Shown here in pieces: positions 7,131 to 9,631 of a stretch of DNA of 64,000 bases (positions are counted from its first letter, which is position 1; each line of letters starts with the position of its first letter). Where the stretch lies: positions 23,776 through 87,775 of the forward strand of contig JBBSJL010000001.1 in the NCBI GenBank assembly GCA_038257245.1, written 5' to 3'. A program made the translations under genes and the position numbers. The notes under the pieces were generated by a model that worked only from the letters and a program-made list of their open reading frames with translations, searched no databases and had not been told where the DNA came from. Source of the DNA: Candidatus Saccharimonadales bacterium. GTDB lineage: Bacteria; Patescibacteriota; Saccharimonadia; Saccharimonadales; JACQNP01.

Positions 7131-7514
7131 ATGGATAACCAAAAACAAAAAAAGATTTTACTAGTAGAAGACGATGACGCACTAGCTAGTGTGTATCAAA
7201 CACGTTTACAAGCAGAAAACTTTGATATTAGGCGGGTGCCGAATGGCGAAGATGCTTTAGCTGCAACCTTAGAATACAAACCAGACCTGATTTTGCTAGA
7301 TGTAATGATGCCTAAAGTTAGTGGATTCGATGTGCTGGATATTTTACGAAATACGCCCGAAACTGCAACAGTTAAGATCATTATGCTAACAGCACTCAGC
7401 CAAGACGCAGATAAAGAGCGTGCTAAGAGCTTGGGTGTAGATGACTATTTAGTGAAATCACAAGTTGTAATCGCCGACGTTGTCGACGTTATAAAACAAC
7501 GTCTTGGAATATAG
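7131..7514 (+). CDS. single-domain response regulator (receiver only)
   Basis: 127 aa. VEDDD acidic pocket, phospho-acceptor context DLILLDVMMP, MLTA, and K in DDYLVKS. Close paralog of the receiver domain of 45403-46686. Confidence 0.85.
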   Translation: MDNQKQKKILLVEDDDALASVYQTRLQAENFDIRRVPNGEDALAATLEYKPDLILLDVMMPKVSGFDVLDILRNTPETATVKIIMLTALSQDADKERAKSLGVDDYLVKSQVVIADVVDVIKQRLGI

Positions 7515-7544: not shown

Positions 7545-7567
7545 AGAGCTCACAAAGGGCTCTTTTT
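7545..7567 (+). terminator. weak intrinsic terminator after the receiver gene
   Basis: AGAGC (7545-7549) / GCTCT (7559-7563) stem followed by TTTT. Confidence 0.45.
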
Positions 7568-7576
7568 AATACCAGA

Positions 7577-7605
7577 TTGACAATCTGTAAAAAGTATGCT
7601 ACATT
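7577..7605 (+). promoter_or_regulatory. sigma-70-type promoter of the Fic-like cassette
   Basis: TTGACA (7577-7582), 17-nt spacer, TACATT (7600-7605). Lies ~25 nt upstream of ATG 7630. Confidence 0.55.
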
Positions 7606-7629
7606 ATATATGTAATTTAAAACAAAAAA

Positions 7630-8340
7630 ATGTCAGTAATATCTAGTTCAGAATCATCATTTACGTCTAATGGTAACGAAATCGAACATTCTCGTAATGT
7701 TTTACAACTTGCAGAGTTAAAAGAAATGCTTGGTGCATACGGGTTAGAAGGTGGCAGTCCAAAAGAGAGATTAGATAGTTTGAGAAATCAAAGTAAGGAA
7801 TCACTGGCATTATTTATGACTGACCTAAATGCACGATTAAATGGTTCAGAGGGTAGTCTGGTTCATGAGGACGCTATGAAAATAGGTGATAAGCAAACCG
7901 TTGCACCAGAGGACAGATATGATTTATTTAGTTCTATAGTTGAAAAGGTTAGAAATTGTCCAGAAGATGTAAATCCAGCACGAGTGGGAGACACTTTAGC
8001 ATTGACGACAGTTTTATTACATCCTTATAAAGATGCCAATGGTCGAACCGCTAGAATGTTTGGATATATATTTCGTGATGATATTGATGGTCTAGATGGA
8101 CAAGAAGATTTTAACACTTTAGTTGAACCTCGTGATCAAGCTCGAGAGCGTGGAGGCTTTACGATTAATGGATACATACCATATGTGGGTGAAGGCACAG
8201 ACCAGTCTGATCCCACAGTGGTATCTGGATATGTTGATAAGCTACTTGCGAGTAATGACACAAGTTTGTACACCAGTCCTTATGGACAAGCTGAGCTAAT
8301 CAAGCCACCCGACAATATTCTGCAAGGTGGAGCTGAATAA
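7630..8340 (+). CDS. Fic/DOC-family protein (putative AMPylase/phosphotransferase)
   Basis: 236 aa with HPYKDANGRTAR, a near match to the Fic core HxFx(D/E)(G/A)NGRxxR. I could find no (S/T)xxxE(G/N) inhibitory motif. Confidence 0.6.
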   Translation: MSVISSSESSFTSNGNEIEHSRNVLQLAELKEMLGAYGLEGGSPKERLDSLRNQSKESLALFMTDLNARLNGSEGSLVHEDAMKIGDKQTVAPEDRYDLFSSIVEKVRNCPEDVNPARVGDTLALTTVLLHPYKDANGRTARMFGYIFRDDIDGLDGQEDFNTLVEPRDQARERGGFTINGYIPYVGEGTDQSDPTVVSGYVDKLLASNDTSLYTSPYGQAELIKPPDNILQGGAE

Positions 8341-9332
8341 TGAACCACGAAGTAGTTAGCCTACACGAGGCAGAACATGGTCCTGAAACACAATTGCCAG
8401 CTAACGTTGAGATTATTGATGGTATGTTGACTGAAGAGTTTACTGCAAAGAGGGCAAAGTGGTTGCAAGATCAAATAGAAGGTCAGTATGACCCGCAAAT
8501 GCGACATATAGGAAAGTTGACTGACAGAATAGACCAGACAAGAGCGGAAGGCTTCAGCGCTTACGATAATCAGGATCAAGAAACATATAAAAAGAAAATA
8601 GAAATAGCAAGCCAAACAAAAGAGTATATGTATAAAACTTTTGGTGCTACGAATGTGCGGGAATTCAACAGGTACAAAGAGGCTGAATATAGACAGCAAA
8701 AAATTGGTACAATTGAGTTTTGGGGAGAAGATTCAGATAGGATATTTGATGAAATAGTTGGATGTACTGAAATAATTGACGATGGCATCGATCGTGAGTT
8801 TAGCGTGCCACCGGCTGACAGAGTCGATCCGAAACGAGAGGATTTCCAAGAATATTTAGGTAATAAAATATTTATCGACCATAGTACTTTACAAAATTAT
8901 GTAGAATCAGATACATCTATAGAGTTAGGATATAAAGAGGGTGCGGGTTATAAGATACCGTTGGCAAATATTGTATCAGCAGGAGGCTTTGATAGTTGGG
9001 CTGGTAGGGGCGTCAATGGTCGTAAAGATGGAATGGACGATAAAGATTATCAGAAAAGCTCGGGAGAACAAGTTATTGGTAGGAGTATAGATGCCATAGC
9101 GGACTACGCATTAAGGGAAACAGAAATTCCACCTATTGAAGGAGTTGATGCCTATGTTCAGCCAAATGGTATAGTAATATTTTCTGTCGGTAATTCAAAC
9201 CATAGGATTGCAGCAGCCGTAGCAAGAGGCCAAGAGTTTATCGAAGTAGATGGTATGGTCAGTATACATAAGTTGGGGCAAAATTTAGTTGAAGCCAAGC
9301 AAGATTTGGATAGTGCCGCGGTTGCAGCGTAA
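8340..9332 (+). CDS. hypothetical protein with C-terminal ParB/Srx-like segment
   Basis: 330 aa, start overlaps the Fic stop by 1 nt (TAATG). The C-terminus PIEGVDAYVQPNGIVIFSVGNSNHRIAAAVARGQEFIEV resembles the ParB N-terminal/sulfiredoxin fold (..G.HR..AA...G...I). The N-terminal 230 aa are unassigned. Confidence 0.4.
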   Translation: MNHEVVSLHEAEHGPETQLPANVEIIDGMLTEEFTAKRAKWLQDQIEGQYDPQMRHIGKLTDRIDQTRAEGFSAYDNQDQETYKKKIEIASQTKEYMYKTFGATNVREFNRYKEAEYRQQKIGTIEFWGEDSDRIFDEIVGCTEIIDDGIDREFSVPPADRVDPKREDFQEYLGNKIFIDHSTLQNYVESDTSIELGYKEGAGYKIPLANIVSAGGFDSWAGRGVNGRKDGMDDKDYQKSSGEQVIGRSIDAIADYALRETEIPPIEGVDAYVQPNGIVIFSVGNSNHRIAAAVARGQEFIEVDGMVSIHKLGQNLVEAKQDLDSAAVAA

Positions 9333-9358: not shown

Positions 9359-9631
9359 TTAGTCTACTGTTACTTCGGTGCGGGCAACAGATTTGCCGCT
9401 AAAAAGTCGGACGCGTCTTTGGTTGAAGTTTACAATTCCATCTTTTTTGGCATGAATTGTATAGTTACGGCTCATGAATGTGCCTTTACCGGGTCGCTTA
9501 CTCATACCAGTTTGACGTATGATTACTTGACCTGTTTTTACTTTTTGGCCACCAAATAGCTTAACGCCAAGCCGTTGTCCCGGACTGTCGTGTACGTTTT
9601 TACTCGATCCACCAGCTTTAACTTTTGACAT
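9359..9631 (-). CDS. rpmA: 50S ribosomal protein L27
   Basis: 90 aa. The N-terminus MSKVKAGGSSKNVHDSPGQRLGVKLFGGQ is the canonical bL27 N-terminus. Confidence 0.95.
   Translation of the reverse strand: MSKVKAGGSSKNVHDSPGQRLGVKLFGGQKVKTGQVIIRQTGMSKRPGKGTFMSRNYTIHAKKDGIVNFNQRRVRLFSGKSVARTEVTVD

What the first reader, a model, noticed from the sequence alone, without database searches (positions are those of the whole stretch)
7577..9332. Self-contained Fic-like + ParB/Srx-like two-gene cassette
The cassette sits between a terminator (7545-67) and the convergent rpmA. It has its own near-consensus promoter (TTGACA-17-TACATT) and two translationally coupled ORFs (TAATG overlap).

- ORF1 carries HPYKDANGRTAR, a near-canonical Fic active-site loop. 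I could find no (S/T)xxxE(G/N) auto-inhibitory helix in it.
- ORF2 (330 aa) ends in a segment resembling the ParB/sulfiredoxin NTP-binding fold (GNSNHRIAAAVARG).

Known Fic toxin modules pair with small FicA-type antitoxins that supply the inhibitory Glu. I do not recognise a large ParB/Srx-like partner as a described arrangement. The pair could be a novel toxin/immunity, effector or conflict module.
Basis: partly seen in the sequence, partly recalled or inferred. Interest (0 to 1): 0.6.

Follow-up and report, generated by a model that had tools for sequence, protein, structure and literature searches.

The report
Fic enzyme with ParB/sulfiredoxin-like partner
In this Candidatus Saccharibacteria genome, a divergent Fic-type protein-modifying enzyme is co-transcribed with an uncharacterised protein whose C-terminal domain resembles sulfiredoxin/ParB; related genomes fuse the two into one protein, so they probably work together, but not as a toxin-antitoxin pair.

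Summary

- **ORF1** is a divergent Fic protein. Its family (37 proteins) carries the canonical HPFxDGNGRTAR motif, and all top 50 fold matches of the model are Fic proteins.
- **ORF2** belongs to an unannotated family with 238 hits among 50%-identity cluster representatives. It has a helical N-terminus and a C-terminal domain whose best fold matches are sulfiredoxin, then ParB and KorB. These matches are weak, and no member hits Pfam ParBc.
- **Location.** The pair is not mobile. It fills a fixed slot between a receiver-domain gene and rpmA in Saccharibacteria, behind a conserved promoter.
- **Slot contents vary**: Fic alone (4 distinct loci, including the closest homologue), ORF2-like alone, Fic+ORF2 with the same 1-nt overlap (1 further locus), or ORF2-Fic fused (4 distinct proteins). 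One locus has a kinase-like-Fic fusion and one has FHA fusions.

The fusions support a functional link. The solo occurrences argue against an obligate toxin-antitoxin pair. Most likely ORF2 is an optional nucleotide-binding accessory subunit of the Fic enzyme. This is a new variant of known kinds and of moderate interest.

The parts
7545..7573 (+). Terminator-like hairpin plus T run that ends the upstream receiver-domain gene. It marks the left boundary of the slot.
   Evidence: 7 pairs, 4 GC, TTTTTAATACC tail; sequence.
7577..7605 (+). Sigma-70-type promoter TTGACA-17-TACATT with TG before the -10. It is followed by a short A-rich leader ending AAACAAAAAAATG.
   Evidence: An equivalent promoter and leader precede the slot in L001, L004, L012, L017, L020, L024 and L030, with -10 variants in L002, L005, L025 and L028, whatever the first gene is.
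7630..8340 (+). ORF1, 236 aa: a divergent Fic-domain protein of a Saccharibacteria-specific family.
   Evidence: AF2 pLDDT 89.6; all top 50 PDB hits are Fic proteins; best E 3e-4, TM 0.3-0.36.
7666..7683 (+). S13-N-G-N-E17-I18, a conserved near-match to the Fic inhibitory motif (S/T)xxxE(G/N). It lies 114 residues before the catalytic His and is a candidate intramolecular inhibitory element (inference only).
   Evidence: Glu in 28/34, Ser/Thr at -4 in 22/34, Ile at +1 in 29/34; kept at the same 114-residue distance in fusion P0078. Geometry not tested.
8020..8055 (+). Fic signature loop HPYKDANGRTAR. It matches HxFx(D/E)GNGRxxR except for Phe-to-Tyr and Gly-to-Ala.
   Evidence: 31 of 34 family members match the consensus HxFx(D/E)GNGRxxR in full. 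Motif definition from PMC3667792.
8324..8332 (+). Shine-Dalgarno-like AAGGTGGAG for ORF2, inside the 3' end of ORF1.
   Evidence: Read directly.
8338..8342 (+). TAATG stop/start overlap (1 nt) that couples ORF1 and ORF2.
   Evidence: The same arrangement (TGATG) occurs in L004.
8340..9332 (+). ORF2, 330 aa: a member of an unannotated protein family.
   Evidence: 238 relatives at E<=1e-3 among 50%-identity cluster representatives; AF2 pLDDT 94.1, pTM 0.89.
8400..8756 (+). N-terminal helical bundle of ORF2 (residues 21-139).
8907..9299 (+). C-terminal alpha/beta domain of ORF2 (about residues 190-320). It is ParB/sulfiredoxin-like with element order beta-alpha-beta-beta-alpha-beta. It is the domain shared by the whole family.
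   Evidence: top hits Srx 3cyi E 0.015 prob 0.96, ParB 7bm8, KorB 8qa8; hhalign against Srx, Prob 73%, P 3.1e-5.
9189..9230 (+). GNSNHRIAAAVARG. His288 and Arg289 are invariant among 23 close family members and conserved in at least 90% of 150. The segment aligns with FGGCHRYAAYQQL of sulfiredoxin.
9359..9631 (-). Convergent rpmA (ribosomal protein L27). It marks the right boundary of the slot.
   Evidence: Pfam labels on the syntenic loci.

Best explanation
This is a Saccharibacteria-specific two-gene operon. It sits in a fixed but variable slot between the CheY-like receiver gene and rpmA, and is driven by a promoter conserved across the lineage.

ORF1 is a divergent Fic-family enzyme with an intact catalytic loop, so it most likely transfers AMP or another NMP to a protein hydroxyl group.

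ORF2 is an optional accessory protein. It consists of a helical bundle followed by a ParB/sulfiredoxin-like domain that keeps the phosphate-contacting His-Arg motif, so it most likely binds a nucleoside triphosphate.

The two act as one unit. The most likely arrangement is that ORF2 is a nucleotide-sensing regulatory or target-recruiting subunit of the Fic enzyme, not an antitoxin.

Shown here: gene structure, the Fic fold and motif, the ParB/Srx-like fold, recurrent adjacency and fusion, and occurrence of each gene alone.

Inferred: NMP-transferase activity, nucleotide binding by ORF2, a physical complex, and the direction of regulation.
For: Fic identity:
- The family consensus is HPFKDGNGRTAR.
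- The AF2 model has pLDDT 89.6, and every one of the top 50 PDB hits is a Fic protein.
- Fused relatives exceed the Pfam Fic threshold (29.9 and 28.5 bits against 24).

ParB/Srx-like fold of ORF2:
- The model has pLDDT 94.1.
- The top 13 Foldseek hits are sulfiredoxin, followed by ParB and KorB.
- hhalign of a 148-sequence domain alignment against human Srx gives P 3.1e-5 and aligns PPI...QPNG...HRxAA to PPID...GGCHRYAA.
- His288 and Arg289 are invariant among 23 close members and at least 90% conserved in 150.

Functional link:
- Translational coupling by a 1-nt overlap here and in L004, at only 62% and 39% protein identity.
- Four proteins, each representing a different 50%-identity cluster, fuse a complete ORF2-like module to a Fic domain (P0046, P0075, P0078, P0133).
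- The P0133 fusion sits in the same slot in two independent assemblies, and its Fic half matches the ORF1 family at E 2e-79.

Not an obligate pair:
- Fic is alone in the slot in L002, L005, L028 and L030.
- The ORF2-like gene occurs without Fic in L001, L017, L023, L024 and L025.

Resident, not mobile:
- Synteny is conserved and GC is uniform at 0.37-0.41.
- There are no hits in viral contigs, plasmids, PHROGs or PADLOC beyond the Fic loop.
Against: - No experiment or complex prediction shows that the two proteins touch.
- The ParB/Srx assignment rests on weak scores (Foldseek E 0.015, TM 0.18 over the whole query). No Pfam ParBc hit was found for ORF2, its domain consensus or 150 relatives. 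hhalign against two canonical ParB sequences was not significant.
- Only 3 of the 8 distinct slot loci that hold an ORF1-type Fic also hold ORF2 (WIN, L004, L020). Only 4 of 150 ORF2-family representatives are Fic fusions, so the link is facultative.
- The window's Fic loop carries Gly-to-Ala, the change seen in AnkX (HxFxDANGRxxV, a phosphocholine transferase; PMC3667792). The transferred group may therefore not be AMP.
- In the fusions the order is ORF2 then Fic, the reverse of the gene order here.
Confidence: 0.45

Rival explanations
1. Toxin-antitoxin or toxin-immunity module. ORF1 is a constitutively active Fic toxin and ORF2 neutralises it.
For: - ORF1 lacks the strict (S/T)xxxE(G/N) motif.
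- The genes are tightly coupled.
- Fic toxins with separate inhibitors are well known, and classes II and III show that an inhibitor can be fused to a Fic domain (PMC3667792). Fusion alone therefore does not exclude this reading.
Against: - Fic is alone in the same slot in four distinct loci, including the closest homologue (66% identity).
- In L004 the ORF2 homologue carries a nonsense codon while the Fic gene is intact.
- The ORF2-like gene occurs alone or with unrelated partners.
- Known Fic antitoxins are small, are coded immediately upstream and supply the Glu motif (PMC3667792). ORF2 is 330 aa, lies downstream and has no conserved motif of that kind.
- A conserved N-terminal SxxxE element in ORF1 may provide self-inhibition.
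- There is no link to mobile elements.
Confidence: 0.12
2. Host-directed effector locus. The slot is a diversifying expression site for proteins that the epibiont delivers into, or uses against, its actinobacterial host. Fic and the ParB/Srx-like protein would be two interchangeable or cooperating effectors.
For: - Slot contents are mixed and matched behind a conserved promoter. They include Fic, kinase-like-Fic, ORF2-like, FHA-ORF2-like, FHA-transglutaminase-like and unknown proteins of 597 and 317 aa.
- ORF2 is the fastest-evolving gene of the neighbourhood, at 39-42% identity against 71-88% for the receiver gene and rpmA.
- About 10% of canonical Fic proteins lack an inhibitory helix (PMC3667792). 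From my own knowledge, not tested here, these are typically secreted effectors.
Against: - I saw no signal peptide or known secretion signal by eye, and no adjacent secretion genes.
- ORF1 evolves no faster than the neighbouring housekeeping-type genes (56-62% against 51-62% for the methyltransferase).
- ORF1 is kept in syntenic position, and in other chromosomal contexts (L008-L011), as expected for a resident cellular enzyme.
Confidence: 0.2
3. There is no functional link. Two unrelated genes happen to share a recombination-prone slot, and the fusions are accidents of that proximity.
For: - The slot is clearly variable.
- Each gene occurs alone, and each occurs with other partners.
Against: - Four fusion proteins, each representing a different 50%-identity cluster, keep complete modules of both families. 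One is seen in two independent assemblies.
- The fusion order is reversed relative to the gene order here. It therefore cannot be a simple read-through of the window's arrangement, and such fusions are unlikely to be retained in several lineages without benefit.
- The same 1-nt overlap is kept in L004 despite deep divergence.
Confidence: 0.15

Closest known systems
Class II Fic AMP-transferases (SoFic, FICD/HYPE)
   Same: - Fic fold with a signature loop of the HxFx(D/E)GNGRxxR type. The best structural matches of the ORF1 model are FICD chains.
- A beta-hairpin precedes the core helices; I read it as the Fic target-docking flap.
- A conserved Glu lies about 114 residues before the catalytic His, in an SxxxE context. 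My estimate for class II enzymes is about 125-130 residues, partly from memory.
   Different: - No sequence-level relationship outside the loop (PDB phmmer E about 0.7).
- TM-scores are only 0.3-0.36.
- The Glu motif ends in Ile rather than Gly/Asn, and the model shows it in an extended rather than helical segment.
- There is no TPR or wHTH domain.
- The partner is a separate or fused ParB/Srx-like protein. I found no description of that arrangement in the literature searches.
Class I FicT/FicA toxin-antitoxin modules (VbhT/VbhA, EcFicT/EcFicA)
   Same: A two-gene operon that holds a Fic protein and a tightly coupled second gene.
   Different: - The antitoxin in those systems is small, is coded immediately upstream and carries (S/T)xxxE(G/N) (PMC3667792).
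- Here the partner is downstream, 330 aa, lacks the motif and is dispensable in related genomes.
Sulfiredoxin and the ParB N-terminal nucleotide-binding domain (ParB/Srx fold)
   Same: - Same order of secondary-structure elements.
- The PPI(E/D) strand and the Gxx(x)HRxAA helix cap align with Srx PPID...GGCHRYAA.
- By my knowledge of Srx, the His-Arg pair that contacts ATP phosphates corresponds to the conserved His288-Arg289.
   Different: - No Pfam ParBc match.
- The catalytic Cys of Srx is replaced by Asn or Ser.
- There is no ParB-type HTH or GERRxR box.
- A roughly 35-residue insertion carries a conserved DSWxGRG motif.
- An N-terminal helical bundle is attached.
AnkX-type Fic loop (HxFxDANGRxxV)
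   Same: The window's copy has the same Gly-to-Ala change within DANGR (PMC3667792).
   Different: - The final Arg of the loop is kept here.
- 32 of 34 family members keep Gly at this position. The change looks like a variant of this genome rather than a family trait.

Membership tests
Fic/Doc family (PF02661) | Active-site signature HxFx(D/E)GNGRxxR | tested here: met
   The window has HPYKDANGRTAR. The catalytic His, Asp, Asn-Gly-Arg and second Arg are kept; Phe is replaced by Tyr and Gly by Ala. 31 of 34 homologues match the consensus in full. Definition from PMC3667792.
Fic/Doc family (PF02661) | Pfam model score at or above the gathering threshold | tested here: inconclusive
   The window copy scores 19 bits against a cut-off of 24, over the loop only. 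Relatives pass: the L012 and L020 fusions score 29.9 and 28.5 bits, and 29 of 37 homologues carry a precomputed PF02661 hit.
Fic/Doc family (PF02661) | Fic fold (helical core, with the loop between two core helices and a beta-hairpin flap) | tested here: met
   AF2 pLDDT 89.6. All top 50 Foldseek PDB hits are Fic proteins, best E 3e-4 and prob 1.00, but TM is only 0.3-0.36.
Fic/Doc family (PF02661) | NMP-transferase activity on a protein target | not testable with these tools
   Needs an auto-modification or target assay with labelled ATP or other NTPs.
Fic inhibition classes I-III | An inhibitory helix with (S/T)xxxE(G/N), in a partner (class I) or in the Fic chain itself (classes II and III) | tested here: not met
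   No conserved strict motif in the ORF1 family (34 sequences) or the ORF2 family (150 sequences). Near-match SNGxEI at residues 13-18; its geometry is untested.
Class I FicTA toxin-antitoxin | A small antitoxin coded immediately upstream, with the toxin not maintained without it | tested here: not met
   The partner is downstream and 330 aa. Fic is alone in the same slot in L002, L005, L028 and L030. The ORF2 homologue in L004 is interrupted by a nonsense codon.
ParB/Srx superfamily (Pfam ParBc PF02195) | Sequence-profile match to ParBc | tested here: not met
   No ParBc hit at E<=10 for ORF2, its C-terminal domain or the domain consensus. None among 150 relatives at E<=0.01. No PDB sequence hit.
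ParB/Srx superfamily (Pfam ParBc PF02195) | ParB/Srx fold | tested here: inconclusive
ParB/Srx superfamily (Pfam ParBc PF02195) | A conserved phosphate-binding motif at the N-terminal cap of the second helix (GxxRxxA, or GCHR/DGHHR type) | tested here: met
   (S/D)(N/S)HR(T/I)AAA, with His288, Arg289 and Ala292 invariant in 23 close members and at least 90% conserved in 150. It aligns to GGCHRYAA of Srx.
ParB/Srx superfamily (Pfam ParBc PF02195) | Nucleotide binding or hydrolysis | not testable with these tools
   Needs binding or hydrolysis assays with ATP, CTP and GTP, plus H288A/R289A controls.

The most novel reading that the evidence does not exclude
A new mode of Fic control. A ParB/sulfiredoxin-type nucleotide switch, supplied in trans here or in cis in the fusions, gates or targets a Fic enzyme. 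The module sits in a diversifying, promoter-anchored expression slot that ultrasmall epibiotic Saccharibacteria use to modify host or self proteins. The ORF2 family would then be a new functional branch of the ParB/Srx fold dedicated to protein-modification signalling, alongside the FHA and kinase-like modules found in the same slot.
Probability: 0.2. Interest if true: 0.75.

Novelty: new variant of a known kind. Interest (0 to 1): 0.5.

Why it matters
- **Fic regulation.** Fic enzymes are usually held in check by an inhibitory glutamate helix. A recurrent partnership with a ParB/Srx-like nucleotide-binding protein, sometimes as a fusion, would be a different regulatory or targeting arrangement.
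- **A new family.** ORF2 gives a first handle on an unannotated protein family with 238 hits among 50%-identity cluster representatives. Every family member whose genomic context was examined lies in Saccharibacteria-type synteny, except P0108 (L027).
- **Epibiont biology.** Saccharibacteria are obligate epibionts with tiny genomes and few regulators. A variable slot behind a conserved promoter, filled with Fic, kinase-like, FHA, transglutaminase-like and ParB/Srx-like modules, is a plausible place to look for the proteins that manage the host interaction.
- **Caveat.** If the genes are only neighbours, the finding reduces to a lineage-specific Fic gene next to an orphan gene.

Tried and rejected
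- **Profile search of the ORF2 family against PDB sequences.** Only coiled-coil noise.
- **Pfam on the C-terminal domain and its consensus, and NCBIfam.** Nothing for ORF2; NCBIfam gave only a sub-threshold Doc match (13.9 bits against 38.65) for ORF1.
- **PADLOC and PHROGs.** Only weak hits on the Fic loop, including Doc-like toxin at E 0.059.
- **Metagenome scan with the large alignments.** With 13 close sequences it gave only 2 loci.
- **Third homologue search with a 28-sequence domain profile.** Six hits, none with a Pfam label.
- **Viral contigs for both families and plasmids for ORF2.** No relatives.
- **Literature searches for Fic with ParB/Srx, Saccharibacteria or Patescibacteria.** No description of this pairing.
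- **Recent horizontal transfer, rejected.** GC is uniform and synteny is conserved.
- **An alternative genetic code in L004, rejected.** Apart from the ORF2 homologue, the called genes of that locus are of normal length under table 11. The single in-frame TGA falls on a Trp codon conserved in homologues, as expected for a TGG-to-TGA nonsense change.
Full report
**What is in the sequence**

- A terminator-like hairpin (7545-7563, followed by a T run) ends a 127-aa receiver-domain gene (7131-7514).
- A promoter TTGACA-17-TACATT, with TG before the -10, lies at 7577-7605.
- ORF1 is 7630-8340 (236 aa) and ORF2 is 8340-9332 (330 aa). Stop and start overlap by one base (TAATG).
- A Shine-Dalgarno-like AAGGTGGAG lies 7 nt before the ORF2 start.
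- rpmA is convergent at 9359-9631.
- HPYKDANGRTAR is encoded at 8020-8055 and GNSNHRIAAAVARG at 9189-9230.
- GC content is uniform across the region at 0.37-0.41.

**Organism and synteny**

Record titles of related loci name Candidatus Saccharibacteria. The neighbourhood is conserved in every close relative examined: pyrG, receiver gene, the slot, rpmA (-), UPF0020-type methyltransferase (-), LPG-synthase-like membrane protein, then xseA and xseB.

**ORF1 is a divergent Fic protein**

- The window copy alone scores below Pfam's Fic threshold (19 bits against 24, covering only the loop). It gives only marginal PDB sequence hits (E about 0.7).
- It nevertheless has 37 homologues at 44-66% identity, and 29 of them carry a precomputed PF02661 hit.
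- The family consensus is HPFKDGNGRTAR. 31 of 34 aligned members match the canonical consensus in full, so the Phe-to-Tyr and Gly-to-Ala changes are peculiar to this genome.
- An AF2 model built on the alignment has pLDDT 89.6. All 50 best PDB matches are Fic proteins such as FICD, NmFic and EfFic, although TM-scores are low at 0.3-0.36.
- The canonical motif, the AnkX variant HxFxDANGRxxV and the inhibitory motif (S/T)xxxE(G/N) are as described in PMC3667792.
- The strict inhibitory motif is not conserved in the ORF1 family.
- A near-match, T-(S/T)-(S/A)-N-G-x-E-I at residues 12-18, is conserved. Glu17 is present in 28 of 34 members.
- That near-match lies 114 residues before the catalytic His, and fusion protein P0078 keeps it at the same distance. 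It is a candidate self-inhibitory element, but I could not check its geometry.

**ORF2 belongs to an unannotated family with a ParB/Srx-like domain**

- ORF2 has no hit in Pfam, NCBIfam, PHROGs, PADLOC or PDB sequences.
- The word-indexed search found one homologue. An exhaustive phmmer search of 1.84 billion cluster representatives found 238 at E<=1e-3.
- Most of these share only the C-terminal 130-150 residues. The conserved positions are Pro207, Trp220, Gly222, Ser249, Tyr256, Ala257, Pro264, Pro275, Gly277, His288, Arg289 and Ala292.
- None of 150 members hits Pfam ParBc.
- The AF2 model is confident (pLDDT 94.1, pTM 0.89). It shows a helical bundle (residues 21-139) and an alpha/beta domain (about 190-320) with element order beta-alpha-beta-beta-alpha-beta.
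- Foldseek against PDB ranks human sulfiredoxin first (3cyi, E 0.015, prob 0.96). Ranks 1-13 and 15 are all Srx, Caulobacter ParB is at rank 14 and KorB appears further down.
- hhalign of the 148-sequence domain alignment against human Srx gives Prob 73% and P 3.1e-5. The Srx sequence was verified against PDB. The alignment places IPPIEG...QPNG...NSNHRIAAA on VPPIDV...GGDY...GGCHRYAAY.
- hhalign against two canonical ParB sequences is not significant.
- I conclude that the domain is ParB/Srx-like in fold, nearer to the Srx type than to ParB CTPases. It is not a member of Pfam ParBc by sequence.

**Is the pair real? The slot survey**

tblastn and family HMMs were run on all fetched loci. The receiver-rpmA slot holds the following.
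- **Fic alone:** L002/L003, L005-L007, L028/L029 (the closest homologue, 66% identity) and L030/L031.
- **Fic followed by an ORF2 homologue:** L004, with the same 1-nt stop/start overlap. There the ORF2 homologue carries one in-frame TGA at a Trp codon conserved in homologues.
- **A single 497-aa protein, complete ORF2-like module then complete ORF1-like Fic module:** L020/L021, in two independent assemblies. Its Fic half matches the ORF1 family at E 2e-79.
- **A kinase-like domain fused to an ORF1-like Fic module:** L012.
- **ORF2-like alone:** L001, and L025/L026 with a 146-aa ORF.
- **An unknown 597-aa protein plus ORF2-like:** L017-L019.
- **An unknown 317-aa protein plus ORF2-like:** L023.
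- **An FHA-transglutaminase-like protein plus an FHA-ORF2-like protein:** L024.

Three further ORF2-Fic fusions (P0046, P0075, P0078) lie on short contigs.

Fic homologues also occur alone in other chromosomal contexts, L008-L011.

Adjacency and fusion recur across deep divergence. Equally, each gene is often found without the other.

**Further context**

- A promoter of the form TTGAC(A/T)-17-TGCTAnAAT, with an A-rich leader ending AAACAAA(A/T)ATG, precedes the first gene of the slot in at least 10 loci, whatever that gene is.
- Relative to the window, ORF2 homologues are the most diverged genes of the neighbourhood at 39-42% identity. ORF1 is at 56-62%, the methyltransferase at 51-62%, pyrG at 64-74%, and the receiver gene and rpmA at 72-88%.
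- Neither family has relatives in viral contigs, and ORF2 has none in plasmids.

**Interpretation**

The best reading is a lineage-specific Fic enzyme with an optional ParB/Srx-like accessory protein, working as one unit.
- Fusion of complete modules in four distinct protein clusters, together with conserved translational coupling, is standard evidence for a functional or physical link.
- The solo occurrences, the nonsense codon in L004, the downstream position and size of ORF2, the lack of a Glu motif in it, and the possible self-inhibitory SxxxE element in ORF1 all argue against a class I Fic toxin-antitoxin system.
- The conserved His-Arg cap and the Srx-like fold make nucleotide binding by ORF2 the most economical inference. 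In one genome its place beside Fic is taken by a kinase-like domain, which fits a nucleotide-dependent partner role.
- I cannot say whether ORF2 regulates Fic, recruits its target or modifies the same target.
- The variety of signalling-type modules in the slot, and the epibiotic lifestyle of Saccharibacteria, keep a host-directed effector reading alive. No secretion evidence was found.

**Novelty and score**

Fic enzymes and the ParB/Srx fold are both well known. Their recurrent pairing and fusion, and the ORF2 family itself, appear undescribed in the libraries and literature I could search. I rate this a new variant of a known kind, with interest 0.5.

Noticed in passing
L024:428-1969 and L024:2025-3590: In another Saccharibacteria-type contig the same slot holds two proteins. 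A 513-aa protein has an FHA domain (24.1 bits, above Pfam's cut-off of 20.7) and a weak transglutaminase-like C-terminus. A 521-aa protein has a weak FHA match fused to an ORF2-like module. The two share about 30% identity over their FHA regions.
   Followed up: partly
L012:5200-6693: The slot holds a single 497-aa protein. An N-terminal domain resembling an atypical protein kinase (weak Pfam ABC1, E 0.041; GNLLYD...VDIDYG by eye) is fused to a full ORF1-type Fic module (E 2e-82 to the family HMM; Pfam Fic 29.9 bits).
   Followed up: partly
L004:6056-6058: The ORF2 homologue next to Fic is interrupted by one in-frame TGA at a Trp codon conserved in homologues (ESIEAW against ESIDA*). This looks like a TGG-to-TGA nonsense change or a sequencing error. 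Gene callers split the gene into products of 90 and 180 aa.
   Followed up: partly
window:7577-7629 and the equivalent intergenic regions of L001, L002, L004, L005, L012, L017, L020, L024, L025, L028 and L030: A promoter of the form TTGAC(A/T)-17-TGCTAnAAT and an A-rich leader ending AAACAAA(A/T)ATG are kept in front of the slot, even though the first gene differs (Fic, ORF2-like, 597-aa protein, FHA protein, kinase-like-Fic). It could be homologous sequence or simply the lineage's generic strong promoter.
   Followed up: partly
L009:1195-1894 and L011:5747-6453: In two Saccharibacteria genome records the Fic homologue is split over two overlapping reading frames. These are apparent frameshifts, either pseudogenes or assembly errors.
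   Followed up: no
L027:5001-6686: P0108 (561 aa) carries the ORF2-like helical module twice before the ParB/Srx-like domain. It lies in a different neighbourhood with no Fic gene within 5 kb.
   Followed up: no
L017:4197-5990: A 597-aa acidic protein with no Pfam match and no Fic motif takes the place of Fic upstream of an ORF2 homologue (46% identity to ORF2).
   Followed up: partly
window:8179-8217 (ORF1 residues 184-196): A second conserved acidic element, PYxxEGxDQSDP (Glu188-Gly189 in 27 of 34 homologues), follows the Fic core. The model places it in a confidently predicted loop. Its role is unknown.
   Followed up: no
L010:4119-5791: In a Patescibacteria genome the Fic homologue lies beside a canonical parA-parB pair and near rplU. 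That ParB sequence was used as a control in the hhalign comparison.
   Followed up: partly
window:48614-48689: The only RNA gene detected in the 64-kb window is one tRNA-Glu (CTC). No other Rfam family reaches its threshold.
   Followed up: yes
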